A DNA stretch of 64,000 nt from an uncultured Chitinophagales bacterium (GTDB lineage Bacteria > Bacteroidota > Bacteroidia > Chitinophagales > S012-47): assembly GCA_964471795.1 (NCBI GenBank), contig CAYYHM010000007.1, positions 1,221-65,220 of the forward strand. Direction: 5' to 3'. A program made the translations under genes and the position numbers. The notes under the pieces are model-generated. The model was not told the origin of the DNA and did not search any database. It saw only the letters and a program-made list of their open reading frames with translations. Positions within the stretch are counted from its first letter, which is position 1; every line of letters starts with the position of its first letter. This document shows positions 16,001 to 32,197 of the stretch, piece by piece.

Positions 16001-19000
16001 CTCAACAACTTCAACATATACCGAGATGGTGTACTGATCGCCGCAGCCAATCCAAACGAAAGCTTTGTGTTCGATTACGATGGCATACCGGGTAAGAAGT
16101 ATGTATATCAGGTAGCACCGGTATCGCTGGATAAGGTGGTAGGGGTTACCAAAGGCGACGAAGGATGGCGCGAAGAAAACGGCATCCTCGATGGTATCGT
16201 GCTGACCTTCGACGGACAGGTAGGTGTGCCGGGCATCAACATCGAAGCCTGGGCCATGGTGGAAGGGGAGCGTTTCTCCTACAGTACCATCACCGACCAG
16301 GAAGGTAAGTTCAAGATCAAGCGCATGTATTACAGCGATTCTACGCGCTACTTCGTACGTGCCTGGAAGCCCGGCCATGAGTTCAAGAAAGATACCATGG
16401 ATACAGAGTTCAACTTGCAGCAGTTCCAGCGTACCGTGGATCCGTTCTATGACCTTACAGCCTACGTGGTAACTGGTGTGGCTAAATATGAGAACACGGA
16501 CTGCCCCATCGACAGCATGGATGTAACGCAGTTCAAGATCCTGAATGACGGCACCGTGTTCAAAGAAACCCGTCAAACCAACAGCGAGGGCAGCTACACG
16601 TTCAACATCGAGCCATTCAATACCGATATCAACCGGTATGAATACCATATTGCCGGTGAGCGCTATCGAGTGTCTGACAGCAACTTGTTGGATACAGTCT
16701 ATTACCACTGGTCAGATAAGGTGAAAGTGCTGAACAACCCGGCTTCTGTCGGCAAAACCACTGTGCTGAGCGACTTTGTGGATACCACTACCTATCAGGT
16801 GCAGTTGTTTGTGCAGAACGTGTGTGGCCCTATTGGTCAAAACAGCTGGCAGGTGCAGGTGCAGTCTACCGATGGCTGTTACAACCAGCTGGTGAGCACC
16901 AACCTGAACGGCTTCCGCAACCTGTATCTGCCACCGAAGGACTACGTGTTCAGGGTGGTTGGCGTTGCCAGCCCCTCAGCGCAAACCTTGCCGGTGGTGG
17001 ATTACCTGAAGGTACGACCCAGAAGTCTGGATCTGATCGCCCTGCATGAGAGTCTGAATGGAGCCGTGTCTGATACACTGGTGCCGATGAACTTCGTGTT
17101 CCATGTAACGCCCAATATCGGCATCACCAACCTCACCGACTTCCTGTGTGATGATCCTACCTTGCCTGTGGTTGTCTCTACCGGAGATGTCAAGACCTAC
17201 AACGTAGTGGTAGGGGAGACATTTGATGGCATCACCTGTCCGGTTAACGAAGGCTTCCTCATCATTCGCAACAATGCCTCGGTAGAGGGAACCGTGCAGA
17301 TCGACTACGATCCGGCAACAGGCAGCTTCCCGCCGTACACCTTTACGGTGGGATCGCCCAACATCGTATCGCCGTATGTGAAGTTCATGTTTGTGGAGTA
17401 CCATACCGAAAGCGATGGCTTCCTGGGAAGCTATGCCGTAGCCTTCCTGATACAGGGTGTAGCCGGTGTGCCGGGCAACGACATCATCGTTACGCCGGCC
17501 TCTGAAAACGATCAGGTGCTGCTGCCACTGATGATCTTGCGTGATCCGCCGGGTGATGGCTCATTCGCACAGATCGACTCGGGTACTACCTTCGAGTCTA
17601 CCCTGTCTGTGCAGGACGAATACAAGTTCGGATTAGGACTGGGTATCGAGGTAAAGACCAAGGTGTTCGGCTCCGGCATTCAGCTGGATATCGCCGGCAA
17701 GGTAACGGGCGGTTTCGACAGAAATACGCAGTTCAAGGTTACGGCTACCACGTCAAAGACCATACAGACCTCTTCGGATAGTCAGGCCGATGCAGCCGAC
17801 CAGAGCAGCCGCTTTACCGGCGACAGAGCCGACGTGATTGTTGGTTCCGGCTTAGCCTTGCAGTATGGCATCGGTGTGGAGGTAAGTGTAGATGATACTT
17901 GCGGAGTTATCGTTGCCAACCGCATCACCACGGGTGCTGAGGTGCGCACCACCTGGATCTATGCGGTAGATCAGATCCGTCACCTGGTGAATGAATACAA
18001 CCGGAATATTGAGAACGCCCGCAATGGCACGTACACCATTGACACGCTGAGTGCGCAGGCTACAGAGGAATTCCTGGCATTGCGCCGCGACAACTGGAAT
18101 CAGATCCTCAACTATCATAGTGTAAAAACACTGCCGCACTATGCGTTCTGTGACCCGGCCAACTTTGCCCAGATTCCGGAGCCCTGGAAATCGGCAGCAG
18201 TAGCCTGGCGGACTGAAGGGTTCTGTACCCTGATCGGTAGCTACTCGCCCGATGGTCAAACATTCAACATGAATGAAGACATCGTGTGGGATGCCAACCT
18301 GATTGAGCGATACAACAAGGTGCGTCAGCAGGTGGGAGACATCGAAGACTATCTGAACTACAAGGGGCAGGTCATCTATGTAGAGTCTTTACTGGATCAG
18401 GTGCAGCTTGATCAGGCTTATCTGTCCTTGTATGGCCCCGATGCCAAGAACATCACCTTCTCCGGAGGTACGTCATTCTCCGAAGAGCGTGCCATTACCC
18501 GCGAGCGGGGAAGCTCCTTCAAGCAGAAGGTAGGTGGCGGCGCCAGTATTGCCGGTCAGACCATCGCTGCCGGTAAGGTTGTGACGTTCGTAGGTGCATG
18601 GGTAGGTTTCGGTGGTGGCGCCATGGGCGGTACTGTGCTGGAACTGACAGAGTTCGGCGTGTCGCTGAAGCCATCATTCGAGTTTGAGATCAACTACGAG
18701 CAGACGCAAGGATCTACGAACGGATTGCAGCAGAAGGTAAGCTACACACTCTCCGACGACGACCCGGGTGATCAGTATAGTGTGACCATCGTGCGGGGTG
18801 CACAGGCCAACCACACGCCTTACTTCTCCTTGCTGGGTGGACGTACCAGTTGCCCGACAGAGCCGGGTGCCATCTCCCGCGATATGCCGGATATCCAGCT
18901 GATGGGCCCCGGAGGTATGCCGGTGTCGCCGGTAACCTTCAATGCAGATCCGGATAAGCCGTTCATCATCCCGATACAACTGGCCAACCTGAATCCATTC

Positions 19001-21766
19001 GGAGAAGGGCGCTACTATGATGTGTACCTGACGGAGAACTCAAACCTGAATGGTGCCATCATCCGCGTAAATGGTCAGATTCTGGGGTACAACTCCGTAT
19101 CAACGGTATTCATCAACCCCGGACAACCGGTGTATGCCTACCTGATGCTCGACAGGAACCCATACTTCTACGATTATGAGGACATAGGCATCGGACTGCG
19201 CTCCAGCTGTGATCTCTATGTGTATGACGTGGCTACCTTCAGTGTACACTTCCGCCATCCTTGTTCGGATATCTCCATCAGCCAACCGTATGACAACTGG
19301 CTGATCAATGGCGATACCACATTGATGCCTGTGTACCTGACAGACTATGATCCATACAATCCGAAGCTGCAGAATGTGCAGCTGGTTTACCGTCGTATCG
19401 GCACGCCTGCGTGGGATACCATCGTAAGCCTGACCGCCGACTCCTTGCGGAACTATTTCGTTCGGTTCAGGCCTACCTATCCGGTGCCTACCTATCCGCA
19501 TGTGTGGGACATCTCTACGATTCCTGACCTGACGGACGGCGATTATGAGCTGATGGCCATTGCCAACTGTGCCACCAGTGGTGTGGTAACGTCGAATCGG
19601 GTACGAGGAACCATAGACCGCAGCACCTTCCGCTTGTTTGGTGTACCGCAGCCATCGGATGGATTGCTGAGTACAGGTGATGAGATATCGGTAAGCTTCA
19701 ACAAAGCCATCGACTGTCCGGTAAGTCAGGGTACAGCCGTGTACGAGTTCCGTGCTGATAGTGCCAATGGCCCGTTGGTGAATGCCTCGATGGCCTGCTT
19801 CGGCAACAAGATGGTGTTTTTGCTGGATAATCCGTTGTTGTATGAAGGCCGTATGGTCTATGCTACATTGAACGGCGTGTACGATGCAAGTGGCAACCTG
19901 CAGGCCGAAGAAGTAGCGTGGTCGTTCCGTGTGAGCAACAACCCGGTATATTGGCAGCCGATGCGCATAGAGGTGAGTGTGGAGAAAGGCACGCGTGGCC
20001 AGGTAACTGCTATGTTGCGCAATACAGGTGCCGGCAAGGACAATTACCAGCTGAGCTATACACAGGCATGGATGCGACCTTCGCCAATGGTGGGTCAGGT
20101 ACTTCCGGCAGGCATACCGGTAATGTTAGATCTGGATGCCACCAACCTGGAAGTAGGTACGTACAACGATGTAGTACGCGCAGCCATAGCCGGCTACACT
20201 ACCATCGATCTGCCGGTGACGATGCACGTCATCAAGCCATTGCCGGCGTGGAACGTAGATCCGGCTCAGTACCAGCATAGCCTCAACGTCATCGCCATCA
20301 ACTACATCGACTCGGTAGCTACTACCGATACCAACGATGTGATTACGGCCTGGGTGAATGGCACTCTGCGTGGTGTGGGCAAGATCCGTGAGGTGGCAGG
20401 GCCGCTGTACCGCAGCTATCTGACGGTTTACGGTAATGCCATCGATGCCGGTGCTATCATTGACTTCCGGGTATGGGATGCCAGCCGTGGCGCATTGTTC
20501 CAGGGTCATCCGGATAACGTGATGACTTTCGAGATCGATAACACCATCTATGGATCCACACCATCGCCTGAGAAGATCTGGGTGGACACAGACGTGGACT
20601 CATTCCGTATGATTCCGTTGAATCAGGGCTGGACATGGTTCTCCATCAACATTACTCAGCCGGATATGAGTGTGAACAACATCCTGCGTTCCATTTCTCC
20701 TGCCAATGGCGACATCATTATGGGCCAGGCGAAGAGTGCGGAATACCAGGTAGGTGTTGGCTGGACTACGTTGACCGGTTCGCCGGCCAACACGCTGCTG
20801 GATACCATCAGGCCTGTAGAAGGGTACATGATTCATCTGGCACAAGCAGACACCTTGTTGCTGACGGGCGAAGATGCACTGAACCAGCTGATTCCTGGCT
20901 TCAGCGGCTGGAACCTGATTGGTTACCTGCCGCAGGAAGCCCGTCCAATCAATGACGCATTCCTGACTACGGTAAGCTTTGCCGATGGTGATGTGCTGAA
21001 GAGCCAGACTGACTTTGCCATCTACAATGATGTAGATGCGGTGTGGGAAGGCAGTCTAACGGAGATGTCGCCCTATCAGGCCTACAAGCTGAAGTTGGGC
21101 AGTAACACAGGTGTGTACTACCGTGGTACGGGCCCGGCGGGCTGGAAGGTAGAGCCGTCGGCTTATGAGCATGCCATGCGTATGATGGCGGTGGTAAACG
21201 TGTTCGGCTTCGAGTTCAGGGATGAGGAGAGCATGGTAGCCGCCTTTATCAACGGAGAATGCCGCGGTGTTACCAAGCTGGTGTATGTGCCGCATCTGAA
21301 TCGCTATCTGGCGCCACTGTTCGTGTACAGCAACGAAGTAGGCGAAGAGGTGACATTCAAGATTTGGGACGGTATCATTGATACGCTATATGATGCTTCA
21401 CAGCGTATTGCGTTTAACCCGCAGGCACTACCCGGACGGATGCGGACGCCTTTTGTGGTGTCGCCACAAGGCACCAGTACAGGTACGGATGCAGGCATAG
21501 AGCCGGTACAACAGGCATTCAGTCTGCAGCCGAATCCATTCACCGAGCAGATGGTGCTGGAGATCACCGAGGAGATGGGCGACGACTACGAGGTAGTGAT
21601 GTACAACGCGATTGGCGAAGTAGTGTATCACCTAGATGCCAGCACCGTGAAAGGCAACAACCGCTTTGTGGTGAAGCCGCACAGAAAGTTGGATGCCGGC
21701 TTGTACATGGTGGTGATCCGCAATGGAGAACAGATGGTACAGCAGTTCAAGGTGGTGAAATTGTAA
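7064..21766 (+). CDS. Giant (4900 aa) T9SS-secreted mosaic cell-surface protein: FG-GAP/integrin-like propellers, LamG, Fn3 array, CarboxypepD_reg-like sandwiches, a long uncharacterised C-terminal region and a T9SS sorting domain
   Basis: Uninterrupted 14.7-kb ORF with signal peptide MKRILTLIVTLFSAISCIYAQ. Domain motifs are listed in the sub-features below. Every antisense ORF inside it is much shorter. Confidence 0.93.
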   Translation: MKRILTLIVTLFSAISCIYAQSYAPVLVESTPVPGGVRLTWTPVSSSSASGYHIYRNDVLIGVTDEVIDNEFTDRNPIAGAVVTYCVTSYQGSTESPYRNCIIDSSFYYGAFLASDSASDARIELTWSIDAGCLTVPGTDSIYLEVKNATTNEDVFVQILQADSVPTASEAVVSVALSGGNHLLLDAAYTGGSLTSTFLTGIGRAIAIDGNRAVIGAPLADGGLGKAHVYERVGNEWVETAQLVPATRSITDNYGESVDIYGGKIIVGAPGGNGIAYVFELSGGVWSETGQLTADFQQVNDDFAKSVVIDTQFALVGAPAKYGAQGVIFLYMKSGSTWNRIGRIFSRFPAPGQRFGYSLDFDGSMLAVGCPGNSAGRGSAYLFQKLGFSFIYRAALNPGTLVVNDRFGESISVQGGRAVVGAPGSNGNKGRVYVFHQQNAFNWPLAATLAPAELQAGDRFGEGVAHYGDLLSGGAPTRAADNGAVYFYRYSSSWQANGKAVRPAGSAGDGYGLAMDMWTDGLLVGAPYEQGGQSAVYKYFHNGNIWNGTGTIGGIKGPSNTLELWVLRNGPQVGNGALISDDFVSFNMTSPTLDRVNFSTGAVVYHFNYQVPMNRWTHLALVSDSSTGRSRLYANGALVDEKPNFFLYGVERAGFQPGQTPPNQLQAQIRDIRYWSDARTGQEIADNFDQVLTGMEPDLTGYWKVSEGAGNTAADATGHYPPAVYQTGSPAPWVIDSIAPIISGTATEWVGADKVMAYTLNTYSIGFGTPLCPPTKLDTGSTLPYKVPAIVVDSSRPDQMTLSWVNTSEAISYYRVVRDGLSLGLLDSTALNWTDSYRYGVTNTLTNGQPYRYCLVPFSTWFLTNGQPTVYDSICVRGNTLPIAFMAADNTAPASVDLTWNDMSAFGDWIEIYRDGSFFAQLDSQAVAYTDANPVPGKRHVYEFRLLNDGDIVVAATDTGSILPVGVLAGRVITQSGDYALAGVAIEATAIVEGDTMRYQTVTGLAGDFHMDQVYFGTTSSYSVTATAQAGYNITTPAQNVVLKISDPERTNLVFKGDKDIQPTGTQALALTNFQATDLPGQDMIQLSWTYSSPDTTWFKVYRDDALLTILTDTASGTLTSYNDLTGEPGTNYQYEIQAYVYDNDSVVTEVSAGDDASLSLLSAVDTFDASVVVGDGTVLLTWSHSSTNFDGFVLYRDGDVLDTISAAAAYSFVDEQGIPGRNYTYRIRTFASRNDSTHYSAYTDGVPSPVTYPGLLPPAVVDATAVAAQDHVVITWTYPVTGNANFFGFEVYRTASGNTDTLTLYHKDFYTGILGGFYQYQYIDYTGIPGLNYEYGVASIKQMPYFASTVNSDTEVYPAVSEVSGLSASTTYTDHVELTWAAGSTNHQGYEVWRNGNKVAALGKSARSYTDAVNTASSARSFAYTIKAIRDIDGAMYTSTGVAATGSTLALPNDGLQIPLNFVASDQYTNHVQLSWQYPPYVLSKFFIYKDGQLIDSLDNSLRFYFDTAVAPGDVHTYAIEGRWMGDISARASDAGRLGSLLQVEGMAQSDEGYGIPGVRVALSVGGIETDAAYTDATGFYRMQGVANVPGTTVTVTASGPNAAFLQPTQQITISAGTDRYVVNFTDTFYHRLILPDSDVATPVPFLASIDRLTNQVELRWNVTNPNYSGFRIFRGLAQAANVPAGQPLNYLDPFASPGFDYYYSIFAYYYKPTGTVHSDTIHTGIFVPKVPPVEGLQALPDFDEDVVKLYWSHPTDKHTYYEIQRNGSVIATVPAGERLFFADTTGKPGYLYRYTVTCYLVNSAGFFNSDPVVVETNFPDVAPITELALTPVPADNRVDVNWRHTSAYYTYALVYRDNVVIDTVYRNMPLKQSLDYWGRPGMATRYAVQSVVQKDNTYFFSDTVGLSVVYPTLYTPVLDGDVAGVDRLTLQGSYLPADGYSGFEFYRDNDQLPGSPRSGIAASFTFEDNDGVPDSSYTYKVRAFKDVDVTYYSPYATRTVAFPPLAPPFACAASDGAYFNHIEITWQHSSTANDGFILYRDNAAIDTLPAGARKYKDIVNSSSNSGVNPVYFLRAYKVDNGNWYVSVPSNSDDGYALIQQFSILSSYTDSVAGAHLGLNVAIGADFALGGTGTSTQVAKTYDLDVTGNFSPGADLTPDAASGTSTAFGYDVAIAGTRALVGSPWSWNASPSSLFYRSGEVYVYNKPIGQNVSLDTILRNFNFLPTIFRSEHRLGTPINMQRVESNAWSTFVVNDVTTSVGPADTSIGTGSGLTSFGNQLFFDVTNDVVLNQVTVYPQDTGVVSVTIRPASGGPIYSQNFNVQPIAAYAATVLTLNAAIPPGTGYKIDAQGSNNIGALYRNNGGVSYPYTEPEGVVSITGSSAGGSFYYYFYDWQVTVKDTVGTRVHELATSYTVDTFSATFAVNLPTNHTYGTDIQLDTVWVRMSKNGWTQGTRVTLENVTLEKVGTGFTKTLFSTNTSISCPQDSIDIALVSTGGSGLVSANCSNSVTGVFTSASNFAASGITTNGNYRLTFRARLHDPVDTVANALTGQVIVDEVKLSYSTLAGGIYANAQSTGAEMGRAVALNASMIAGGGPIFNTQRGLVTTFIQRGDWEPLDTLFAPTTAAPFCSYTVSVNGNGYMDETQWTLRDNTNTVIASGGPYIFGGGGSVTVNTANAPLTFYIETQGTFNDNVASFSIVSNGIVIRSGTIFGGQTRTENNINGTCAGAQFGYSLAMGPNRMIVGMPREVNPADNFGSKGAVYYYELGSDGNWVQRQKIAIQQPGPSDDQFGFSLALSGNTLAVGAKGDDWDANASFWDAGSVSLYEFNVSANEYQFQRKIFNPDNPRKTFEFFGNDIAIQGNLMAIGAPGVNKLGSGSVTNAGAVYLYEKDENGNWLLKQRYFADDAQSGGRFGSSVAISGNTLMIGSDGYDAGSAADAGKVYFIYFRDQIDSVVASDGTEGTKTRIEWVYNGVRSNLNNFNIYRDGVLIAAANPNESFVFDYDGIPGKKYVYQVAPVSLDKVVGVTKGDEGWREENGILDGIVLTFDGQVGVPGINIEAWAMVEGERFSYSTITDQEGKFKIKRMYYSDSTRYFVRAWKPGHEFKKDTMDTEFNLQQFQRTVDPFYDLTAYVVTGVAKYENTDCPIDSMDVTQFKILNDGTVFKETRQTNSEGSYTFNIEPFNTDINRYEYHIAGERYRVSDSNLLDTVYYHWSDKVKVLNNPASVGKTTVLSDFVDTTTYQVQLFVQNVCGPIGQNSWQVQVQSTDGCYNQLVSTNLNGFRNLYLPPKDYVFRVVGVASPSAQTLPVVDYLKVRPRSLDLIALHESLNGAVSDTLVPMNFVFHVTPNIGITNLTDFLCDDPTLPVVVSTGDVKTYNVVVGETFDGITCPVNEGFLIIRNNASVEGTVQIDYDPATGSFPPYTFTVGSPNIVSPYVKFMFVEYHTESDGFLGSYAVAFLIQGVAGVPGNDIIVTPASENDQVLLPLMILRDPPGDGSFAQIDSGTTFESTLSVQDEYKFGLGLGIEVKTKVFGSGIQLDIAGKVTGGFDRNTQFKVTATTSKTIQTSSDSQADAADQSSRFTGDRADVIVGSGLALQYGIGVEVSVDDTCGVIVANRITTGAEVRTTWIYAVDQIRHLVNEYNRNIENARNGTYTIDTLSAQATEEFLALRRDNWNQILNYHSVKTLPHYAFCDPANFAQIPEPWKSAAVAWRTEGFCTLIGSYSPDGQTFNMNEDIVWDANLIERYNKVRQQVGDIEDYLNYKGQVIYVESLLDQVQLDQAYLSLYGPDAKNITFSGGTSFSEERAITRERGSSFKQKVGGGASIAGQTIAAGKVVTFVGAWVGFGGGAMGGTVLELTEFGVSLKPSFEFEINYEQTQGSTNGLQQKVSYTLSDDDPGDQYSVTIVRGAQANHTPYFSLLGGRTSCPTEPGAISRDMPDIQLMGPGGMPVSPVTFNADPDKPFIIPIQLANLNPFGEGRYYDVYLTENSNLNGAIIRVNGQILGYNSVSTVFINPGQPVYAYLMLDRNPYFYDYEDIGIGLRSSCDLYVYDVATFSVHFRHPCSDISISQPYDNWLINGDTTLMPVYLTDYDPYNPKLQNVQLVYRRIGTPAWDTIVSLTADSLRNYFVRFRPTYPVPTYPHVWDISTIPDLTDGDYELMAIANCATSGVVTSNRVRGTIDRSTFRLFGVPQPSDGLLSTGDEISVSFNKAIDCPVSQGTAVYEFRADSANGPLVNASMACFGNKMVFLLDNPLLYEGRMVYATLNGVYDASGNLQAEEVAWSFRVSNNPVYWQPMRIEVSVEKGTRGQVTAMLRNTGAGKDNYQLSYTQAWMRPSPMVGQVLPAGIPVMLDLDATNLEVGTYNDVVRAAIAGYTTIDLPVTMHVIKPLPAWNVDPAQYQHSLNVIAINYIDSVATTDTNDVITAWVNGTLRGVGKIREVAGPLYRSYLTVYGNAIDAGAIIDFRVWDASRGALFQGHPDNVMTFEIDNTIYGSTPSPEKIWVDTDVDSFRMIPLNQGWTWFSINITQPDMSVNNILRSISPANGDIIMGQAKSAEYQVGVGWTTLTGSPANTLLDTIRPVEGYMIHLAQADTLLLTGEDALNQLIPGFSGWNLIGYLPQEARPINDAFLTTVSFADGDVLKSQTDFAIYNDVDAVWEGSLTEMSPYQAYKLKLGSNTGVYYRGTGPAGWKVEPSAYEHAMRMMAVVNVFGFEFRDEESMVAAFINGECRGVTKLVYVPHLNRYLAPLFVYSNEVGEEVTFKIWDGIIDTLYDASQRIAFNPQALPGRMRTPFVVSPQGTSTGTDAGIEPVQQAFSLQPNPFTEQMVLEITEEMGDDYEVVMYNAIGEVVYHLDASTVKGNNRFVVKPHRKLDAGLYMVVIRNGEQMVQQFKVVKL
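7670..8700 (+). other. Domain: seven FG-GAP (integrin-alpha-like) blades
   Basis: There are seven units of the type (F/Y)GxSVxIxGxxxxVGAPxxxxxGxAYVF. Examples are GESVDIYGGKIIVGAPGGNGIAYVF, FGYSLDFDGSMLAVGCPGNSAGRGSAYLF and FGESISVQGGRAVVGAPGSNGNKGRVYVF. Confidence 0.75.
8740..9200 (+). other. Domain: LamG / concanavalin-A-like lectin fold
   Basis: WTHLALVSDSSTGRSRLYANGALVDE and IRDIRYWSDARTGQEI are typical of Laminin_G_3-type domains. Confidence 0.6.
9430..13240 (+). repeat. Array of a dozen or more Fn3-like modules interspersed with CarboxypepD_reg-like beta-sandwiches
   Basis: Recurrent (L/I)(T/S)W...(G/N)(Y/F)x(V/I)YR(D/N)(G/D)...Y.Y.(V/I) units, about 85-95 aa each. Examples are LTWNDMSAFGDWIEIYRDG, LSWTYSSPDTTWFKVYRDD and LTWSHSSTNFDGFVLYRDG. 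Two segments look CarboxypepD_reg-like: AGRVITQSGDYALAGVAIEA... and GIPGVRVALSVGG...TGFYRM. Confidence 0.7.
15250..15910 (+). other. Domain: second block of FG-GAP blades
   Basis: FGYSLAMGPNRMIVGMP...GAVYYYE, FGFSLALSGNTLAVGAKGDD...GSVSLYEF, FGNDIAIQGNLMAIGAPG...GAVYLYE and FGSSVAISGNTLMIGSDG...GKVYFIYF. Isolated blades occur earlier at about 13330-13700 and 14800-14880. Confidence 0.7.
21518..21763 (+). other. Domain: T9SS (Por) C-terminal sorting domain of the giant protein
   Basis: FSLQPNPFTEQMVLEITEE...YNAIGEVVY...GLYMVVIRNGEQMVQQFKVVKL matches the usual type-A CTD pattern. Confidence 0.85.
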
Positions 21767-21820
21767 CCACCGCTGCTACCTGATAACTGATAAAGGGCTG
21801 CCGAAAGGCGGCCCTTTTTT
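21738..21820. repeat. 83-bp direct repeat, copy 1 (last 9 codons and stop of the giant gene, plus its terminator)
   Basis: Aligns without gaps to 25847-25929 at a constant offset of 4109 nt. 80 of 83 positions are identical; the mismatches are at 21772, 21791 and 21813. Confidence 0.95.
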
Positions 21821-21821
21821 T
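21792..21821 (+). terminator. Rho-independent terminator of the giant gene
   Basis: Hairpin AAAGGGCTGCC-GAAA-GGCGGCCCTTT followed by a T7 run. Confidence 0.8.
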
Positions 21822-21898
21822 GCAGATTAGCGAATAACTCATAACAAAAAAACAACATTCAGATATTGCATATTTAAAATTGGGTTTGTATACTTGTT

Positions 21899-24451
21899 TT
21901 GTTCTTCACCAAACACACCACTCATGAAGCTCAATACACCTTACCTTACCTTACCTTACTTGCTATCCTACAGTGCAGTAGCCAACTCTTGGCACAAAGC
22001 CATGCATTTGTTCCAAACAAAGGGCAATTGATAGATATGCAAGGAGACAGTGTGCCGGAATACAAGTACTACATGCAAGCGGGGCCAAATAGTACCTTTT
22101 TTACATCCAACGGGTATGATGTGGTGTACAGAAGACCAGATACAAGTGGTATTGCAGCAGACTCCATCATCCGCATCAACATGCATTTTGGGCAAACAGA
22201 TGCCTACCCCGATTTTGTACCCGGGGATTCATCAAGCTACGTATTGAACTATTACCTTCCGCAGGCAGATACCAACCTGAGTACAGGACTAAGGAGATAC
22301 AGCAGTATAACCGCAGAGAATATCTATCCAGGCATTAGCGTCACCTACATGGATAAGAATCCGGGTATTGGCATTCAGTTTACCATAGATACCTCCCAAC
22401 AGCCGGAGGTAATTGAGCTGGTATTTACGGGACAAGACAGCGTGCGGCTTGATACGGTTAGCGGCATATTGCGTATTGATACAAAGCTAGATCCTCTGTT
22501 ATACACCTTACCGGTAGCATGGCAGCAAAGTGGCTTGGTAGACGTAACGTATGATGTTGACAGCATTAATGTGGTTCGATTTGCAGTAGGCTCCTACAGG
22601 CTAGATGAAGAACTATACATAGAGATAGGTCAGGTAGAAGCCCTTACCGACCAGTGTGAAGGCAACCTGGCTTGGAGCACGTATTTGGGAGGGGAGAGTA
22701 CAAACGATTTGGTGCATGACATAATTATTGAACCAGGCTCCGGTAGTACAGATAAGTTGTTTGTAGGAGGAGAGCTCGGTAGCCCCAGCATACCCAATTA
22801 CACGGCTACGGGTAGTGTGTTGGCGTATGTGGGAGTGGTTGATGGCTTTGTAGCGGCATTTGACGTACAGGAAGGTGCAAATGGACTTGAGCATACCATG
22901 AAATGGTTGACGTACTATGGCAGCGGTGGAGTAGATCGTGTAAAGGCGGTGGAGTATGGCCGTTCATCTAGTTTTATGTATGCCTCAGGCGAGGTAGCAG
23001 GTAGTAACCTGCCCCTGCGCAAACCCAATAATGATGTGTATTGGAACGTACAGAACAACAGACGGCTATTTGTGGCAAGATTTGTGAAAAGTACTGGAAA
23101 ACTGAACTGGGGCACCTATTTTGGTGGTAATGATGCTGATGAAATCCATGATATGGAAATGAACCAGGCCAATGAAATATACATAGTAGGAAGAACAGAA
23201 AGTGTGAATTTTCCATTGCTTGACTTGAGTGATGGTAGTTATTACAAGGGCATACCTAAAACACCGGGAATTGCTTTTGTATCCATATTTGATAATGACC
23301 AAGGATTGCTACACAGCACCTGTTTTGGCACCTCTGAGACGGCGATACATGCTATAGCATTAAACTATGAAGGATCATTTTCATCATCTGTGTACATAAC
23401 AGGTGAAACCAATGCAGGTAATACCAGCGATTTTCTGGTAAAAGAAGTAAGTACAGGATTTGATAATGTAACCAATAGTTATGGTGGAGGAAATCTGGAT
23501 GCATTCATTACCAAGTTTCAACCCACTACAACGGCTAAGTTTCCCTTATCATGGTCATCCTACATAGGTGGAAGTGATGCGGACGCAGGCCTTACCATAG
23601 CTATTGCTTCAGAAGACGTGTATGTGGGAGGCTACACGGGTTCAGGAGATTTTCCGATTGAAGAAGATACATCGTCAGGCGCATTCAACCAAACTGCCAA
23701 ATACAATCAGGCTGATGGTTTCATTGGCCGCTTTACCAAACAGGGTGAGCAGCTGTGGACTACTTATTTTGGCAGCGATGGAATAGATGAAATCAGAACT
23801 ATTCTGGCACATCCACAACATGAAGATATTTACTTTATAGGTCATCAGATAAGCCCTACCGGCCCACGTGATATCAGTATAGCCAGTTTATCAAATGCAT
23901 GGAATCAACCCACCCCGTCCAGCATCAATAAGGAAGTATTCATAGGTTGGTTGATGCCGGACAACCGATTGAATTGGTCTTCCTACTTTGGTGGAGACAA
24001 TGATGATGAAGCCTACTCAGGCACCAGAAAAGCACAGGACTATTTTGTGATTGGAGGGATAACAAAGACCTCCCAGGATCCGCGCTCTTCTAGTGTTTTT
24101 CCACTTTGCAATCCACTGGATTATTATAGTGTAGTTCAAGTTCAAAATAATCTTAATGTTGAATATGGATTCTTGTCCAACTTTGAAGTGCGGGGGCTGA
24201 CTACAAATGTGGAAATTTTTGGTGACCAAATGGAAATCAAAGTTTTCCCTACCATAGCTGATGATTGGATTTGTATTGAGATGCTGGTAGACAACCTTAC
24301 AGACTATAGCTATATGCTATTGAATACAATTGGTCAACATGTTTTGGTAGGTGCCATTCATAACAGCTATCAACTGGTAGATGTAAGCAGTCTTCCTAAT
24401 GGCGTGTATTTGTTGTCCATAAGAAGCCTAGCTGGTGTTGAATCAACGTAG
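21899..24451 (+). CDS. T9SS cargo protein with SBBP-type beta-propeller repeats
   Basis: 850 aa. Repeated W(S/G/T)(T/S)Y(L/F/I)GG...D motifs: WSTYLGGESTND, WGTYFGGNDADE, WSSYIGGSDADA, WTTYFGSDGIDE and WSSYFGGDNDDE, with G.T.S.(D/N)FP-like segments. The C-terminal CTD is IKVFPTIADD...LPNGVYLLSIRS. The TTG start is uncertain. Low GC. Confidence 0.8.
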   Translation: MFFTKHTTHEAQYTLPYLTLLAILQCSSQLLAQSHAFVPNKGQLIDMQGDSVPEYKYYMQAGPNSTFFTSNGYDVVYRRPDTSGIAADSIIRINMHFGQTDAYPDFVPGDSSSYVLNYYLPQADTNLSTGLRRYSSITAENIYPGISVTYMDKNPGIGIQFTIDTSQQPEVIELVFTGQDSVRLDTVSGILRIDTKLDPLLYTLPVAWQQSGLVDVTYDVDSINVVRFAVGSYRLDEELYIEIGQVEALTDQCEGNLAWSTYLGGESTNDLVHDIIIEPGSGSTDKLFVGGELGSPSIPNYTATGSVLAYVGVVDGFVAAFDVQEGANGLEHTMKWLTYYGSGGVDRVKAVEYGRSSSFMYASGEVAGSNLPLRKPNNDVYWNVQNNRRLFVARFVKSTGKLNWGTYFGGNDADEIHDMEMNQANEIYIVGRTESVNFPLLDLSDGSYYKGIPKTPGIAFVSIFDNDQGLLHSTCFGTSETAIHAIALNYEGSFSSSVYITGETNAGNTSDFLVKEVSTGFDNVTNSYGGGNLDAFITKFQPTTTAKFPLSWSSYIGGSDADAGLTIAIASEDVYVGGYTGSGDFPIEEDTSSGAFNQTAKYNQADGFIGRFTKQGEQLWTTYFGSDGIDEIRTILAHPQHEDIYFIGHQISPTGPRDISIASLSNAWNQPTPSSINKEVFIGWLMPDNRLNWSSYFGGDNDDEAYSGTRKAQDYFVIGGITKTSQDPRSSSVFPLCNPLDYYSVVQVQNNLNVEYGFLSNFEVRGLTTNVEIFGDQMEIKVFPTIADDWICIEMLVDNLTDYSYMLLNTIGQHVLVGAIHNSYQLVDVSSLPNGVYLLSIRSLAGVEST

Positions 24452-24473
24452 AAGATTATCAAACAATAAGGTT

Positions 24474-25844
24474 ATGTTGGTAAAATATGTAATGAGCTTA
24501 CTAGCCTTATCTATTCTGTTGGCTGGTCAAGGAAGTGCGCAGTGGGTGGAACATTCACGCCTAATAAATCTGAATCAAAGACCTGACATTGCAATCAGCA
24601 TTTCTTTTATAACTAAAGATACGCTCGTACTAACTGAAACTCATAATGAAATTCTTACTTCTTATGATGGAGGTAAAACATGGAATTCGCGGATAATTGG
24701 AAGTAGTTTATTGTCTCAGTTATGCCGTGCTGTGTACTACGATCCTAGGCAAAAGCGCATCTGGGTAGGGTGTGAGAATGACCAACTGTGGATATCAGAT
24801 GATTTTGGCCGATCGTGGACGGATGTATGGCCCTTTTCCCTGACCAGCGTATTCAACTCCCTCTATTCATTCGATAAGGACCTGGTATTTTTTTCTGACC
24901 TGCATTCCGGATTCGGGTTCTATTCAGTAAGTGATGAAAATATATCCTGGGTAAATGATCGAATTATTCGACCAGATGGTGGTACTATGGGGTTTTTTAA
25001 TGCATATCAGGTTGATTTTGTCAATGACAGTGTAGGGTATCTGGTGCATGATAAAAAACACTCTAACGCACCCCCAAATATTTACAGAACAGAGGACGGT
25101 GGCTACACATGGCGGTTTGTAACAGGCAACGATCCGGCAGGAGTGAATGATAAGAATATTTACATCATACAGTTCATTACCGAAGAGATTGGCTATGGAG
25201 TAAGCAAGGGGTGGAGCAATCTGTACAAAACAGTAGATGGTGGCAAAACCTGGAACGAGGTTTTGGATGCACACGGGCAAATTGCAAGAAGTAGGTTTCT
25301 TACCCCTAATAACTTAAAGTGCTTTGATTTTGTAAATGAGGAGTTTGGGATGGTTGTAACTGACAATAATATATACCGAACATGTGATGGAGCGCAAACA
25401 TGGGAAATTGTCAACCCTGAAATAAAACATTATATAGCCATATTTGATGGGATAGACTGTTATGATGAAAGCAATTGTGTTGTTTTTGGATATGGCAAGC
25501 ATAATTCTACCGATATAGGCTATAACGCTATATGGCGCACAGAGAATGGTGGTGGCCCCGGTATCCCGCTATCGGTAGAGTCTGCACCTGCTGTACCACA
25601 GCTGGCAGCCAGAATACAGCCGGTACCTACGGGGGGTGATAGTCAGCTGCTACTATCTGCTATGGCACACAAGGAGGTAGAGGTGCGAGTAATGGATATT
25701 GCCGGCAAACTCGTTTATGATACCACACTGCAAGGCGTACACCAACATACCTTACCAAGTGCTGCCTGGGCCAGCGGTATGTACCTGGTACATGTAATTC
25801 CTGCCGGCCAGCCGGCACAGGTACTCAAAATGGTGCGGCAATAA
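24474..25844 (+). CDS. T9SS cargo protein with BNR/Asp-box repeats (sialidase/Ycf48-like beta-propeller)
   Basis: Asp-boxes SYDGGKTW, SDDFGRSW, TEDGGYTW, TVDGGKTW and TCDGAQTW. CTD ARIQPVPTGGDSQLLL...GMYLVHVIPAGQPAQVLKMVRQ. I prefer ATG 24474 (signal peptide MLVKYVMSLLALSILLAGQGSAQ) over the track start 24435, which overlaps the upstream gene. Confidence 0.8.
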   Translation: MLVKYVMSLLALSILLAGQGSAQWVEHSRLINLNQRPDIAISISFITKDTLVLTETHNEILTSYDGGKTWNSRIIGSSLLSQLCRAVYYDPRQKRIWVGCENDQLWISDDFGRSWTDVWPFSLTSVFNSLYSFDKDLVFFSDLHSGFGFYSVSDENISWVNDRIIRPDGGTMGFFNAYQVDFVNDSVGYLVHDKKHSNAPPNIYRTEDGGYTWRFVTGNDPAGVNDKNIYIIQFITEEIGYGVSKGWSNLYKTVDGGKTWNEVLDAHGQIARSRFLTPNNLKCFDFVNEEFGMVVTDNNIYRTCDGAQTWEIVNPEIKHYIAIFDGIDCYDESNCVVFGYGKHNSTDIGYNAIWRTENGGGPGIPLSVESAPAVPQLAARIQPVPTGGDSQLLLSAMAHKEVEVRVMDIAGKLVYDTTLQGVHQHTLPSAAWASGMYLVHVIPAGQPAQVLKMVRQ

Positions 25845-25846
25845 CA

Positions 25847-25929
25847 TACAGCAGTTCAAGGTGGTGAAATTGTAACCACCCCTGCTACCTGATAACTGAC
25901 AAAGGGCTGCCGAAAGGCGGCGCTTTTTT
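25847..25929. repeat. 83-bp direct repeat, copy 2 (non-coding relic of the giant-gene 3' end plus terminator)
   Basis: See copy 1. It begins 3 nt after the BNR gene stop. The hairpin AAAGGGCTGCC-GAAA-GGCGGCGCTTT plus T6 is retained. The T-tract overlaps the stop codon (25928-25930) of the convergent hydrolase gene. Confidence 0.95.
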
Positions 25930-26758
25930 ATGGAATCTGGGCTATGGCAGCTGTCACGGCTCTTGCCATGTCTTGAGGCAGTACAGCTTGCTTCCAGGGA
26001 TGCTTGCCGCCAAATGTGTGACCGGCATAGGGTAACAGCAGCAATTGACTGTTGGGCTGTGCTGCATGGAGTTGGTGGGCGGCTGCTACCGTAACGGCTT
26101 CATCAGCCGTGCCATGTATGATCAGCCAGGGGATGCTGATATGTGAGGCAAGTGTCAGTATGTCGAAACGGGCATGATGCGCCATGAAATCATCATACAA
26201 GGTGATGTACATCGGTAGTTGCTCACCGGTGCGGCTATTGACCACATATTGCACGCCATCACGCTGCCAGCGGGTGAGTAATGCCGGCGTCCAGAAGTGA
26301 TCGAAACTATGCACGGCTGCCCAGGTAACCAAACGAGTTACACGAGGGTCTTCTGCTGCCTTGCAAATGGCCAATCCACCACCCCGGCTATGACCCAACA
26401 AGGCAATACGTTTCCGGTCTACAGGTATTTCTGCCAGTCCCCAGTCCAGCACCCGACCCAGGTCGTCCAGTTCAATGGAAAACGTATTACGGCCAAAAGC
26501 CTCCGGGTCGGCAAAGGTGGTGAGGTGCTCCGGTGTGGTGCCATTGTGGCTGCCATTGAAACGCACTACCATACAGCCGGCTGCAGCCAACCGTTTTGCT
26601 ACCAGGGGGAAGGGCCCCCAATCCATGAAACCCTTGAAACCATGAATGAAGATCACCAACGGAAACGGCCCTTCACCATCGGGCATCGTTACCTTCACCG
26701 GTATCGGGCGATCATGATTGGGCTGGTACAGCAATTCGAAGCGGTCTTGGCGGGGCAT
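25928..26758 (-). CDS. Alpha/beta-fold hydrolase (dienelactone hydrolase / esterase-like)
   Basis: 276 aa. Nucleophile elbow GHSRGG. FIHGFKG and HGTAD...GH segments are typical of the fold. Confidence 0.8.
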   Translation of the reverse strand: MPRQDRFELLYQPNHDRPIPVKVTMPDGEGPFPLVIFIHGFKGFMDWGPFPLVAKRLAAAGCMVVRFNGSHNGTTPEHLTTFADPEAFGRNTFSIELDDLGRVLDWGLAEIPVDRKRIALLGHSRGGGLAICKAAEDPRVTRLVTWAAVHSFDHFWTPALLTRWQRDGVQYVVNSRTGEQLPMYITLYDDFMAHHARFDILTLASHISIPWLIIHGTADEAVTVAAAHQLHAAQPNSQLLLLPYAGHTFGGKHPWKQAVLPQDMARAVTAAIAQIP

Positions 26759-26829
26759 GTGGTATGTGGTTTCTCGTTTTTAGTTTATGGATTCGGTTAC
26801 CTAAAAATACCCGTTTCAGGCAACAGAGT

Positions 26830-26908
26830 GCCGTACAGTGATATGCGATGTGCGTACAGCGATATGCGATTTGCGTACAGCGATATGCGTACAGCGATTT
26901 GCGACAGC
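26830..26908. repeat. Degenerate tandem repeat (GCGTACAGCGATATGCGATTT-type units of 21 and 14 bp)
   Basis: gccgtacagtgatatgcgatgt / gcgtacagcgatatgcgattt / gcgtacagcgatat / gcgtacagcgattt / gcgacagc, read directly from the sequence. Intergenic. Confidence 0.85.
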
Positions 26909-27055
26909 AGAGGATCGACCAACCTTAAAAACGGTCAACGCTATTTAGGGATGGTCAGGCAACTGGCAACCCACAACTAAGGATTGATAATCCAATATAA
27001 CTGGGAGATTGCCATGCCTGAGGCGGACAAGCCACGGTCGTTCCTCCCTCGCAAT

Positions 27056-27145
27056 AAACCTTGAACCTTGAACCTTAAACCTTGAACCTACCTGCGGCAG
27101 GCAGGCTTGCTTTGAACCTTGAACCTTGAACCTTGAACTCCAAAC
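27056..27145. repeat. Heptamer microsatellite arrays (AACCTTG)n flanking the conserved core CCTACCTGCGGCAGGCAGGCTT
   Basis: aaaccttgaaccttgaaccttaaaccttgaaCCTACCTGCGGCAGGCAGGCTTgctttgaaccttgaaccttgaaccttgaactcc. The 11-mer GGCAGGCAGGC is at 27096-27106. The element lies about 85 nt upstream of the polyprenyl synthase start. Confidence 0.9.
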
Positions 27146-28219: not shown

Positions 28220-28675
28220 GTGAATTAGAAAATCAGAAAATTAGAGGATTAGAAAATGGGCCGAGCCGTTGTGGCGCAGTATTGCTAAGCGTGCTGCGAT
28301 CTACGATTGGCCTGCTGCTAGTCAGGTTACTCAGAACGGATATCCGACAACCGAGAACGCTGAAATAGTGAATTAGAAAATCAGAAAATTAGAGGATTAG
28401 AAAATGGGCCGAGCCGCTGTGAGCGCAGTGTCGGTGTGCGTGCTGCGAACTACTATTGGCCTGCGGCCAGTCAGGTGATTCTTAACGGACAACCCACAAT
28501 ACCCAACCGAGAACGCTGAAATAGCGAATTAGAAAATCAGAAAATTAGAGGATTAGAAAATGGGCCGAGCCGCTGTGGCGCAGTGTAGGTGTGCGTGCTG
28601 CGATCTACAATTGGCCTACTGCTAGTCGGGTGACTTAAAACAGACAACCGACAACGGATAACGGACAACTTGAAA
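28220..28675. repeat. Three tandem copies of a ~148-156-bp intergenic repeat
   Basis: Units start at 28220, 28368 and 28524. Each begins G(T/C)GAATTAGAAAATCAGAAAATTAGAGGATTAGAAAATGGGCCGAGCCG (an 8-bp sub-periodicity TTAGAAAA). A GC-rich middle follows (..GCGCAG..GTGCTGCGA..TTGGCCT..GCTAGTC.GGT), then a CCGACAAC-type tail. Confidence 0.9.
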
Positions 28676-28705
28676 CCCTTACACTTCGACAAGCTTAGTG
28701 TGACA

Positions 28706-28742
28706 CCAACTTCGAACTTCGAACATTGAACATTGAACTCTG
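28706..28742. repeat. Short heptamer array (CTTCGAA/CATTGAA)
   Basis: ccaacttcgaacttcgaacattgaacattgaactct, immediately 3' of the membrane-fusion gene stop. Confidence 0.7.
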
Positions 28743-32075: not shown

Positions 32076-32197
32076 TTTGTGGTTTATTGATTGTGGTGTT
32101 TAATTACCTCAACCTACAACCTACAATCCACAACAGATCGCCGACAACCGGCATCCGAGGTCAAACAACTGCAAACTTCAATATGCTTATTTGACGG

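What the first reader, a model, noticed from the sequence alone, without database searches (positions are those of the whole stretch)
21738..25929. An 83-bp duplication of the giant gene's 3' end plus terminator brackets a 4.1-kb low-GC T9SS-cargo insertion
21738-21820 and 25847-25929 are direct repeats of equal length at a constant offset of 4109 nt. 80 of 83 positions are identical, with mismatches at 21772, 21791 and 21813.

Copy 1 is the last 9 codons and stop of the 4900-aa gene (..VQQFKVVKL*) plus its hairpin/T-run terminator. Copy 2 is non-coding and starts 3 nt after the BNR-gene stop. Its T-run overlaps the stop codon (25928-25930) of the convergent alpha/beta-hydrolase gene.

The simplest history is giant gene -> shared terminator <- hydrolase, with the two T9SS genes inserted between them together with a duplication of the 83 bp. 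Sampled lines in those genes are about 40% GC, against about 57% in the giant gene.

83 bp is too long for a transposase target-site duplication. It is what a Campbell-type single crossover or an att-site integration leaves behind. Yet no integrase or transposase ORF lies in or beside the insert. A microhomology ATGGTRCRGCA (21734-21744 and 25830-25840) sits just left of the junction.
Basis: partly seen in the sequence, partly recalled or inferred. Interest (0 to 1): 0.7.

Follow-up and report, generated by a model that had tools for sequence, protein, structure and literature searches.

The report
Strain-specific secreted-protein operon flanked by repeats
A 4-kb two-gene operon for secreted proteins is present in this bacterial strain and absent from the same spot in two close relatives; it is bracketed by an 83-bp duplicate of the neighbouring gene's end, which is an ordinary recombination scar and not a new kind of mobile element.

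Summary
21738-21820 and 25847-25929 are 83-nt direct repeats (80/83) bracketing a 4,026-bp unit: a promoter, a DUF7948 gene and a BNR/Ycf48-like gene, both with T9SS tails. Two sister lineages (95-97% nt identity; seven Logan contigs and one NCBI MAG) have the uninterrupted site, giant gene, one 83-mer, then hydrolase. So this is a real presence/absence polymorphism.

Independent k=31 unitigs from other runs reproduce both novel junctions. The 83-mer is not a dispersed repeat, since only its 29-nt terminator hairpin recurs, in unrelated taxa. The window has no integrase, transposase, terminal inverted repeats or tRNA. The claimed microhomology is chance (7-10%).

Low GC is real (GC3 0.40-0.41 vs 0.63±0.04). 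However, it is a standing property of this gene pair. A family-level relative carries the pair, equally low-GC, in another slot of the same conserved neighbourhood.

Copy 2 is identical to one relative's single-copy allele. Copy 1 differs at all three variable sites. This favours a recombinational origin: single crossover of a circularised fragment carrying its own 83-mer, or a one-sided homologous event. A fresh target-site duplication is less likely. The mechanism remains unproven. Interest is modest.

The parts
7064..21766 (+). Giant 4900-aa T9SS-secreted surface protein (FG-GAP, Laminin_G_3, fn3, Big_5 domains; Por_Secre_tail at the C-terminus). Its last 29 nt form the first part of the repeat.
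   Evidence: ORF; domains; a 4900-aa orthologue in relatives.
21738..21820 (+). Repeat copy 1 (left, attL-like). It holds the end of the giant gene plus stop, hairpin 1 across the stop codon, a CTGATAA x2 spacer, a GAAA-tetraloop terminator hairpin and a T-run. Alleles are G35, T54, C76.
   Evidence: RNA fold -38.9 kcal/mol, z = -5.6. The differences at 21772 and 21791 are private to the window.
21821..25846 (+). Inserted unit X (4,026 bp; GC 0.432): about 100 nt of promoter/5' region, the DUF7948 gene and the BNR gene. It has no terminator of its own, no mobility gene and no terminal inverted repeats.
   Evidence: It is absent from L003-L009 and L150. Boundaries are defined by homology to L064/L065. 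GC. TIR test gave 9/40 matches. An independent unitig, L067, equals window 21742-25876 at 100%.
21899..24451 (+). Gene 1: DUF7948 protein with a weak T9SS C-terminal domain. The long ORF opens only at TTG 21899. The ATG conserved in homologues (21924) is out of frame.
21939..21958 (+). (CCTTA)x4 pentanucleotide run in the signal-peptide region of gene 1. Homologues have x3, and the extra unit shifts the conserved ATG out of frame.
   Evidence: Alignment; translation from 21924 stops after 35 codons; sequence.
24474..25844 (+). Gene 2: BNR/Ycf48-like beta-propeller protein with a complete T9SS C-terminal domain and its own stop codon.
25847..25929 (+). Repeat copy 2 (right, attR-like), non-coding here. 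It provides the only terminator for the inserted operon and abuts the hydrolase stop. Alleles are C35, C54, G76. G76 breaks one stem pair.
   Evidence: Fold -30.9 kcal/mol vs -35.3 for the L007 empty-site allele. Identical at 83/83 to the single copy in L150. Terminator-like call at 25906-25921.
25928..26758 (-). Convergent alpha/beta-hydrolase gene, the right-hand neighbour in both occupied and empty sites.

Best explanation
The 4.1-kb segment is an accessory two-gene T9SS-cargo operon. It has its own promoter and no terminator of its own. It lies exactly between the giant gene's terminator and the convergent hydrolase in this strain and is missing from that spot in two sister lineages. The flanking 83-bp direct repeat is a recombination scar, not a transposase target-site duplication and not a dispersed repeat. 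Most likely, DNA carrying the operon next to a diverged copy of the same giant-gene tail and terminator was circularised. That DNA would come from a related lineage in which the operon already lay just downstream of that terminator. The circle then integrated by one homologous (RecA-type) crossover within the first 34 identical bases of the 83-mer. An equivalent route is entry as a linear fragment through one homologous and one illegitimate junction. Either route leaves the giant gene intact with the incoming version of the tail (copy 1). It also moves the resident version (copy 2) behind the new operon, where it now serves as that operon's only terminator. The same repeats would allow RecA-dependent loss. 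Shown: the presence/absence polymorphism, the exact boundaries, the absence of mobility genes, the uniqueness of the 83-mer and the allele pattern. Inferred: the circular or linear intermediate, the donor arrangement and the direction of the event.
For: Empty sites with a single 83-mer occur in seven Logan contigs from SRR19514067-75 and in NCBI MAG GCA_964620505.1. These strains are 95-97.6% nt identical to the window. Both novel junctions are reproduced by unitigs from other runs (L067 in 3 samples, L068, L001). Copy 2 is 83/83 identical to L150's single copy. Copy 1 differs from it at all three variable sites, two of them private to the window. Position 76 carries in the two copies the two alleles (C/G) that segregate among empty-site lineages. 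Private substitutions of the window number 13 in the 850 nt left of the insert and 4 in the 750 nt right of it, so each copy resembles its outer flank. There is no integrase, transposase, tRNA or TIR. The insert's boundaries coincide with the limits of homology to the same gene pair in other genomes, leaving no extra element-specific DNA that could hold recombinase arm sites. In E. coli experiments, flanking duplications of the homologous segment (109-950 bp) are the signature of single crossovers by circularised molecules (PMC3240628).
Against: No donor arrangement (tail and terminator followed by the operon, without a second copy) and no circular form has been seen. 83 bp, or 34 bp of perfect identity, is short for RecA-dependent crossover. 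The asymmetry in private substitutions is only marginal and disappears with wider windows, because 26597-26846 has 14 private sites. Three differences between the copies are also compatible with an old de novo duplication followed by mutation or later homologous exchange with other strains. Both junctions look blunt (0-1 nt shared), which gives no positive signature of any pathway.
Confidence: 0.5

Rival explanations
1. De novo duplication at the moment of insertion. A break with roughly 83-nt staggered ends at the hairpin-rich terminator captured a foreign linear fragment by end joining and fill-in. Alternatively, a replication template switch copied the fragment and re-entered 83 nt upstream. 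The three differences arose later by mutation or by homologous exchange with other strains.
For: Both junctions are essentially blunt, with no microhomology. The insert is a fragment cut out of a larger homologous region, since L064 and L065 remain similar to each other further upstream than the window is to either. The duplicated stretch is bounded by two strong hairpins. Three differences in 83 bp are within what the window lineage's private divergence allows (about 1.5%, two copies).
Against: It needs copy 1 or copy 2 to have mutated at position 76 to exactly the alternative allele segregating in relatives, or a later recombination tract. No known prokaryotic mechanism gives about 80-bp target duplications; this rests on general knowledge and was not tested.
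Confidence: 0.2
2. Site-specific integration in trans. The unit is a decayed or satellite island (CIME-like), the 83-mer is its att site at the 3' end of the giant gene, and an integrase encoded elsewhere moves it.
For: The architecture is classical for islands that target a gene's 3' end and restore it. The repeat length is in the range of att identity blocks. An empty site exists in relatives. CIMEs are defined as elements that lost integration and transfer genes but kept attL and attR (PMC5704250).
Against: There is no recombinase in 64 kb. There is no element-specific DNA between the repeats and the cargo genes, so there is no room for arm sites or integrase remnants. The 83-mer was not found next to any other insert in JGI metagenomes or viral contigs, and not in GTDB representatives beyond the generic hairpin. 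The pair has no homologues on known plasmids or phages.
Confidence: 0.15
3. Polarity reversed. The occupied state, with its repeats, is ancestral to this species group, and the empty sites arose by recombination between the two 83-mers. This rival concerns direction only and is compatible with any origin of the repeats.
For: The same gene pair lies in the same conserved neighbourhood in a family-level relative (L064), with protein divergence (50-61%) like the flanking orthologues (49-77%). 83-bp direct repeats are a ready substrate for deletion. A crossover in the first 34 nt would give exactly the C35/C54/G76 allele seen in L150.
Against: In L064 the pair sits in a different intergenic slot and there is no giant gene. 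The empty-site strains show no close homologue of the BNR gene anywhere. Two empty lineages with different alleles (CCC and CCG) would need two deletions or one deletion plus a mutation.
Confidence: 0.25
4. Assembly resolution artefact. In the sampled population the chromosome is empty (giant gene, 83-mer CCG, hydrolase), and the 4,109-bp unit (insert plus 83-mer GTC) exists as a circle or tandem array. The assembler threaded it into the chromosome through the shared 34-mer.
For: The k=31 unitigs L001, L067 and L068 all end at the shared 34-mer, so they fit both resolutions. The would-be chromosomal allele CCG is exactly that of the empty site in L150.
Against: The window comes from a 67.7-kb NCBI contig. 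Such contigs are normally assembled with k above 34 or with paired reads, which would resolve a 34-bp shared node; this is inference. A 4.1-kb circle with no replication gene could not persist on its own.
Confidence: 0.05
5. The 83-mer is a generic dispersed intergenic repeat (REP/MITE-like) that merely happens to flank the two genes.
For: The 29-nt hairpin plus T-run occurs in 54 GTDB genomes.
Against: Those hits cover only positions 55-83, are single-copy per locus and lie in unrelated taxa, mostly Sphingomonadales. One third of the 83-mer is coding sequence of the giant gene. There is no further copy in the window, in JGI metagenomes or in viral contigs.
Confidence: 0.01

Closest known systems
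Single-crossover (Campbell-type) integration of a circular molecule through a short homologous segment
   Same: The insert is flanked by a direct duplication of the homologous segment, the target gene stays intact, and no element-encoded recombinase is needed. In E. coli such events gave 109-950-bp duplications (PMC3240628). The two copies here carry different alleles, as expected for reciprocal hybrids of resident and incoming sequence.
   Different: The homology is only 83 bp, with 34 bp perfect. No circular form or donor has been observed. This is a natural population variant, not a laboratory construct.
Genomic islands / CIMEs integrated at the 3' end of a gene (att-flanked, target gene end restored)
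   Same: The direct repeats include the 3' end of the target gene. An empty site exists in relatives. The cargo is of atypical composition. A CIME is defined as retaining attL and attR but lacking integration and transfer genes (PMC5704250).
   Different: No integrase is present nearby, there is no spare DNA for arm sites, the target is a protein gene's tail plus terminator and not a tRNA or tmRNA, and no other element uses the site.
Homology-facilitated illegitimate recombination, as invoked for displacement of T6SS effector-immunity modules in Vibrio cholerae
   Same: New secreted-protein modules are added downstream of a conserved gene using that gene as a homologous anchor, without an integrase, and leave orphaned remnants (PMC5361080).
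   Different: HFIR typically deletes recipient DNA and shows 3-10-bp microhomology at the illegitimate joint (PMC3240628). Here there is a duplication, and no microhomology is detectable.
Transposon or IS insertion with target-site duplication
   Same: Direct repeats of target sequence flank an insert.
   Different: 83 bp is far beyond known target duplications (general knowledge). There is no transposase and no terminal inverted repeats. The copies are not identical and match different population alleles.

Membership tests
Integrase-borne genomic island at a gene 3' end | Direct repeats that include and restore the 3' end of the target gene | tested here: met
   Copy 1 completes the giant ORF, and copy 2 repeats the same 83 nt.
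Integrase-borne genomic island at a gene 3' end | Tyrosine or serine recombinase gene inside the island, next to one att site | tested here: not met
   The island holds only the DUF7948 and BNR genes. There are 103 nt and 2 nt of spare DNA at its two ends.
Integrase-borne genomic island at a gene 3' end | Empty site in related strains | tested here: met
   L003-L009 and L150.
CIME (cis-mobilizable element) | attL and attR retained, integration and transfer genes lost | tested here: inconclusive
   The structure fits. However, nothing shows that the repeats are recombinase sites, and there are no remnants of lost genes.
CIME (cis-mobilizable element) | A cognate ICE or IME that integrates at the same att site | tested here: not met
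   The 28-mer of the site is absent from JGI metagenome contigs and viral contigs. All eight related loci show either the empty site or this insert. The complete source genome could not be searched.
Transposon / insertion sequence | Transposase gene and terminal inverted repeats | tested here: not met
   Pfam and NCBIfam scans; ends match at 9/40 in register; no terminal inverted pair.
Campbell-type single-crossover product | Duplication of the homologous segment flanking the insert | tested here: met
Campbell-type single-crossover product | The two copies are reciprocal hybrids of resident and incoming alleles | tested here: inconclusive
   Copy 2 equals the allele of empty-site lineage L150, and copy 1 differs at 3 sites. 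This is consistent, but three sites cannot exclude mutation or later exchange.
Campbell-type single-crossover product | Circular intermediate carrying one copy of the segment | not testable with these tools
   k=31 unitigs end at the shared 34-mer. Raw reads are needed.
Homology-facilitated illegitimate recombination | One homologous junction plus one illegitimate junction with 3-10-bp microhomology, usually with a deletion | tested here: inconclusive
   There is no microhomology at either junction relative to the empty site. The reported 11-mer is chance. The donor flank is unknown.
Integron gene cassette | attC with RYYYAAC / GTTRRRY core sites at the cassette boundary, and an IntI integrase nearby | tested here: not met
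   By inspection of the 83-mer, no core-site pair lies at the boundaries. No integrase is in the window. No attC covariance model was available.
Dispersed intergenic repeat (REP/MITE) | Many copies per genome in unrelated contexts | tested here: not met
   Two copies in 64 kb. Only the 29-nt hairpin recurs elsewhere, once per locus, in other phyla.

The most novel reading that the evidence does not exclude
T9SS cargo operons in this lineage might move as recombinase-independent or trans-mobilised 'cargo cassettes'. They would dock at the tail-plus-terminator of a resident cargo gene, duplicating it so that both the resident gene and the incoming operon end up with a terminator. This would be a T9SS counterpart of T6SS effector-module displacement or integron cassette capture. 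Hints: the same gene pair sits in different slots of one conserved neighbourhood in two distant genomes while staying low-GC in both. A second T9SS-cargo block in the window is bracketed by an 82-nt hairpin repeat. Adjacent cargo genes share an 88%-identical 234-nt CTD-coding end.
Probability: 0.08. Interest if true: 0.65.

Novelty: new member of a known kind. Interest (0 to 1): 0.3.

Why it matters
This is a well-resolved natural example of how accessory secreted-protein genes enter or leave a Bacteroidota-type chromosome without any mobility gene. Occupied and empty alleles are both in hand, the breakpoints are exact, and the allele patterns suggest the two repeat copies have separate ancestries. 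It is useful as a worked case of strain-level gene flux. It also cautions that low GC in an island does not by itself show recent foreign origin. It does not reveal a new mechanism or system.

Tried and rejected
1. Generic repeat. I scanned GTDB representative genomes for the hairpin 21-mer and got 54 hits. All were limited to the 29-nt hairpin plus T-run in unrelated taxa. The source species is apparently not among the representatives.

2. Other contexts of the 83-mer. A 28-mer from its invariant part found nothing in JGI metagenome contigs or IMG/VR.

3. More contexts of the gene pair. A profile search of JGI metagenomes returned only generic BNR proteins at 20-30% identity. There were no homologues on PLSDB plasmids or INPHARED phages.

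4. Flanking repeats around the pair in L064. None were found.

5. Microhomology at the junction. It is not significant.

6. Recombination-tract signature in the giant gene. Divergence to the empty-site strain is heterogeneous (1-15% per 250 bp), with no step at the junction. The three-way site-pattern asymmetry is suggestive only.

7. Known RNA or tRNA target. No tRNA was found and no Rfam hit came near threshold.

8. Parallel case at 45-55 kb. The relative's cluster has a different composition and sits in another context, so no clean empty site could be obtained.

9. A shared DNA 'handle' in T9SS tails. Only one other cargo gene shares 13 nt (VKL-stop), and the tails are otherwise divergent.

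10. L002, the 97% hydrolase relative. Its 3' part is replaced by a CofH_C-like sequence, so it says nothing about the junction.

Full report
**1. Observation**

21738-21820 and 25847-25929 are direct repeats of 83 nt at an offset of 4109. They are identical at 80 of 83 positions and differ at 21772/25881 (G/C), 21791/25900 (T/C) and 21813/25922 (C/G).

Neither half of the 83-mer occurs anywhere else in the 64-kb window, even with three mismatches allowed, and shuffled sequence gives no such pair.

Copy 1 contains the last 29 nt of the 4900-aa ORF 7064-21766 (…QQFKVVKL, stop) plus 54 nt of 3' flank. As RNA the 83-mer folds into two hairpins. One spans the stop codon. The other is a GC-rich GAAA-tetraloop stem followed by a T-run, which is an intrinsic-terminator shape (terminator-like call at copy 2).

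Copy 2 begins 2 nt after the TAA of the BNR gene. Its T-run overlaps the stop codon of the convergent hydrolase gene (25928-26758, minus strand).

**2. What lies between the repeats**

The 4,026 bp between the repeats (21821-25846) carry two co-directional genes.
- The first is a DUF7948 protein (E = 1e-25) with a sub-threshold T9SS sorting-domain match.
- The second is a BNR/Ycf48-like beta-propeller protein with a T9SS sorting domain (TIGR04183, 27.4 bits against a cut-off of 23).

The giant gene also ends in a T9SS sorting domain and carries FG-GAP, Laminin_G_3 and fn3 domains.

The composition contrast is real. GC is 0.432 for the insert, 0.540 for the giant gene and 0.514 for the right flank. 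GC3 is 0.41 and 0.40, against 0.628 ± 0.040 for 18 housekeeping-like genes of the window (z = -5.5 and -5.8).

**3. Empty sites exist**

The hydrolase protein's 90% cluster led to seven Logan contigs from runs SRR19514067-75 (L003-L009). In these the hydrolase is followed after 52 nt by the convergent 4900-aa gene, with a single 83-mer between them. These strains are 95-97.6% identical to the window at the DNA level.

A third lineage has the same uninterrupted arrangement: NCBI MAG GCA_964620505.1, contig CAZUHS010000010.1 (L150).

The insert is therefore a genuine presence/absence polymorphism among close relatives.

**4. The occupied form is not an artefact of one assembly**

Logan unitigs from a different run series reproduce it.
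- L067 (SRR14492188, the same contig in three samples) equals window 21742-25876 at 100%.
- L068 ends at 25880.
- L001 starts at 25851 and carries the copy-2 alleles.

L067's length of 4135 nt is exactly what a k=31 unitig should measure when it runs from the 34-nt stretch shared by both copies, through copy 1 and the insert, and back into that stretch. So both novel junctions (terminator→insert and insert→83-mer) exist in raw data.

What k=31 cannot tell is whether the unit is integrated, or a 4,109-bp circle sitting beside an empty chromosome. The 67.7-kb NCBI contig from which the window derives shows it integrated. I rate the circle-only reading at about 5%.

**5. The 83-mer is not a generic repeat**

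A scan of 185,579 GTDB species representatives for the 21-nt hairpin core gave 54 loci. BLAST of the full 83-mer against them matches only positions 55-83 (hairpin plus T-run), once per locus, mostly in Sphingomonadales. This is a common terminator shape, not a repeat family.

A 28-mer from the invariant part is absent from JGI metagenome contigs and from IMG/VR.

**6. No mobility functions**

Every ORF of 200 aa or more in the window was scanned. The genes found were:
- an Lhr-type helicase, an ATP-dependent DNA ligase and a beta-lactamase-fold exonuclease;
- the giant adhesin, the hydrolase, polyprenyl synthetase, HlyD and OEP;
- superoxide dismutase (SOD), arylsulfotransferase, fumarase, enoyl-CoA hydratase, methylmalonyl-CoA mutase and MeaB;
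- four more T9SS cargo genes, a methyltransferase, PnuC (nicotinamide mononucleotide transporter), GlnRS, GluRS and a deacetylase;
- a few ORFs without Pfam matches.

No integrase or transposase was found. There are no tRNA genes and no Rfam match near threshold. The insert ends share 9 of 40 positions as inverted repeats, which is chance level.

It is also 13 nt out of register with the breakpoint. Compared with the empty site, both junctions share 0-1 nt.

**7. Where the gene pair comes from**

The BNR protein has no close relative outside the source strain. The best hits are 54, 50 and 45% identical. In two of these three lineages the context could be fetched, and there it is again preceded by a DUF7948 gene (L064, L065/L066). 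So the pair is a conserved unit.

Alignment of the three contexts shows where homology starts and stops. It begins about 100 nt upstream of gene 1; on the window side this is right at 21821. It stops at the BNR stop codon, plus 2 nt in the window. The inner edges of the repeats are therefore the true limits of the unit, and there is no extra element-specific DNA. L064 and L065 remain similar to each other further upstream than the window does. The window's unit thus looks like a fragment cut from a larger homologous region. It keeps the promoter but has no terminator of its own, and copy 2 supplies one.

**8. Low GC is not evidence of recent foreign origin**

L064 comes from a 107-kb contig of a family-level relative. 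It shares the window's backbone: helicase, a small ORF (x191), ligase, exonuclease, hydrolase, polyprenyl synthetase, HlyD and OEP, at 43-78% amino-acid identity. It has no giant gene, and its DUF7948+BNR pair sits between x191 and the ligase, a different slot of the same neighbourhood.

The pair's proteins are 61% and 50% identical to the window's, within the range of the backbone orthologues. The pair is equally low in GC3 there (0.36-0.42, against 0.46-0.62 for the flanking genes). In the window, other accessory secreted or lipoprotein ORFs are just as low.

Low GC is therefore a standing property of this class of genes. It does not date the insertion.

**9. Ancestry of the two copies**

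The single 83-mer of the SRR195140xx strains reads C35/C54/C76. That of L150 reads C35/C54/G76, which is identical to the window's copy 2 at all 83 positions. Copy 1 reads G35/T54/C76.

Three-way site patterns show the following.
- In the last 850 nt before the insert, including copy 1, the window has 13 private substitutions, while the two empty-site lineages differ from each other at only 3 sites.
- In the 750 nt after the insert, including copy 2, the window has 4 private sites, against 8 and 10 for the other two lineages.

Each copy thus resembles its outer flank. At position 76 the two copies carry the two alleles that segregate among the empty-site lineages.

This is what a crossover between a resident 83-mer and an incoming, diverged 83-mer would leave, if it fell in the first 34 identical bases. 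A freshly made target duplication would start with identical copies. It would then need a mutation to exactly the alternative population allele, or a later recombination tract.

The evidence is suggestive but not decisive. The asymmetry is marginal and vanishes with wider windows, since 26597-26846 holds 14 private sites. Local divergence (about 1.7%) allows three differences to accumulate in an old duplication.

G76 weakens the copy-2 terminator: -30.9 kcal/mol, against -35.3 for the C76 empty-site allele and -38.9 for copy 1.

**10. Mechanism**

The best-supported reading (about 0.5) is a recombinational origin without a dedicated mobile-element enzyme. DNA from a related lineage, in which the operon already lay just downstream of the giant-gene terminator, was circularised and integrated by one homologous crossover in the 83-mer. 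Alternatively it entered by one homologous and one illegitimate junction.

In E. coli, flanking duplications of the homologous segment (109-950 bp) were the hallmark of such single crossovers. True HFIR usually deletes recipient DNA and shows 3-10-bp microhomology (PMC3240628). HFIR-like addition of secreted-effector modules downstream of a conserved anchor gene has been proposed for V. cholerae T6SS loci (PMC5361080).

The rivals are as follows.
- A de novo duplication by staggered-break repair or template switching (0.2).
- A CIME-like island moved in trans by an unseen integrase (0.15; definition in PMC5704250).
- An assembly-resolution artefact (0.05).

The direction of the event is a separate question that I cannot settle. 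I rate loss in the relatives through the same repeats at about 0.25.

**11. Verdict**

The insertion history is confirmed by empty sites. The mechanism is narrowed but not proven.

The feature is a new instance of a known kind: an integrase-less islet flanked by a duplicated gene end. Interest is modest (0.3). Its value is as a well-resolved case, with both alleles and exact breakpoints, of mobility-gene-free flux of T9SS cargo genes.

The most novel reading still open is a general docking of cargo operons at the tail-plus-terminator of resident cargo genes. It has only circumstantial support and is not supported by any shared DNA handle among T9SS tails.

Noticed in passing
window 21939-21958 (and ATG at 21924): Gene 1 carries (CCTTA)x4 in its signal-peptide region where homologues in L064 and L065 have x3. 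The extra 5 nt puts the conserved ATG out of frame, with a stop after 35 codons, so the long ORF opens only at TTG 21899. This could be a frameshift pseudogene, an alternative start or slipped-strand phase variation. The Logan unitig L067 has the same x4.
   Followed up: partly
window 45025-45106 and 54848-54929: An 82-nt direct repeat (93% identity) made of two AT-rich palindromic hairpins, entirely intergenic. It brackets four consecutive T9SS-CTD genes (45365-54814) that lie downstream of methylmalonyl-CoA mutase; its partner MeaB follows only at 57912. This resembles the main finding in layout. A relative (L069, SRR19514075) has a differently composed cluster in another context, so no clean empty site was obtained.
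   Followed up: partly
window 46157-46390 and 47762-47995: The CTD-coding 3' ends of two adjacent T9SS cargo genes (45365-46390 and 46403-47995) are 88% identical over 234 nt. This is far more than the other CTDs of the window and suggests recent duplication or gene conversion of the sorting domain.
   Followed up: no
window 1745-3679; L064 5443-9374: A helicase / small ORF / ATP-dependent ligase / exonuclease gene block, all on the minus strand, is interrupted by opposite-strand low-GC secreted-protein genes at different junctions in two genomes. In the window three unknown ORFs (GC about 0.38) lie between the helicase and x191. In L064 the DUF7948+BNR pair lies between x191 and the ligase.
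   Followed up: partly
window 27042-27139, 28700-28739, 32191-32257, 57865-57972: Short arrays of a heptamer (GAACCTT / GAACTTT)n recur in several intergenic regions, sometimes followed by CCTGCGGCAGGCAGGCTT. This is an unexplained dispersed intergenic motif.
   Followed up: no
window 26824-26904: Tandem copies of about 21 nt (GCGATATGCGTACAGCGAT...) lie upstream of the hydrolase gene. All Logan contigs of the relatives break about 100 nt upstream of the hydrolase start, near this array.
   Followed up: no
window 28222-28663: Three tandem copies of a unit of about 138-150 nt (60-88% identity) lie between polyprenyl synthetase and the HlyD gene.
   Followed up: no
window 34906-35001, 36487-36578, 37923-38058: Repeated 40-60-nt segments (92-97% identity), spaced about 1.5-3 kb apart, precede small ORFs without Pfam matches (207, 217 and 231 aa). 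This may be a small paralogous family with conserved upstream regions, in a region with a GC dip (0.42 at 36-38 kb).
   Followed up: no
L002 (ENA ERZ28594149 scaffold_11778), 246-1388: A 380-aa protein is 97% identical to the first 75% of the hydrolase and then continues into a CofH_C-like domain. This is either a rearrangement in that strain or a chimeric scaffold.
   Followed up: no
L010-L063 (GTDB genomes): The exact 29-nt hairpin plus T-run AAAGGGCTGCCGAAAGGCGGCCCTTTTTT occurs once each in dozens of Sphingomonadales/Sphingorhabdus genomes and in a few other phyla. This is presumably a conserved terminator at one orthologous locus there and is unrelated to this window.
   Followed up: no
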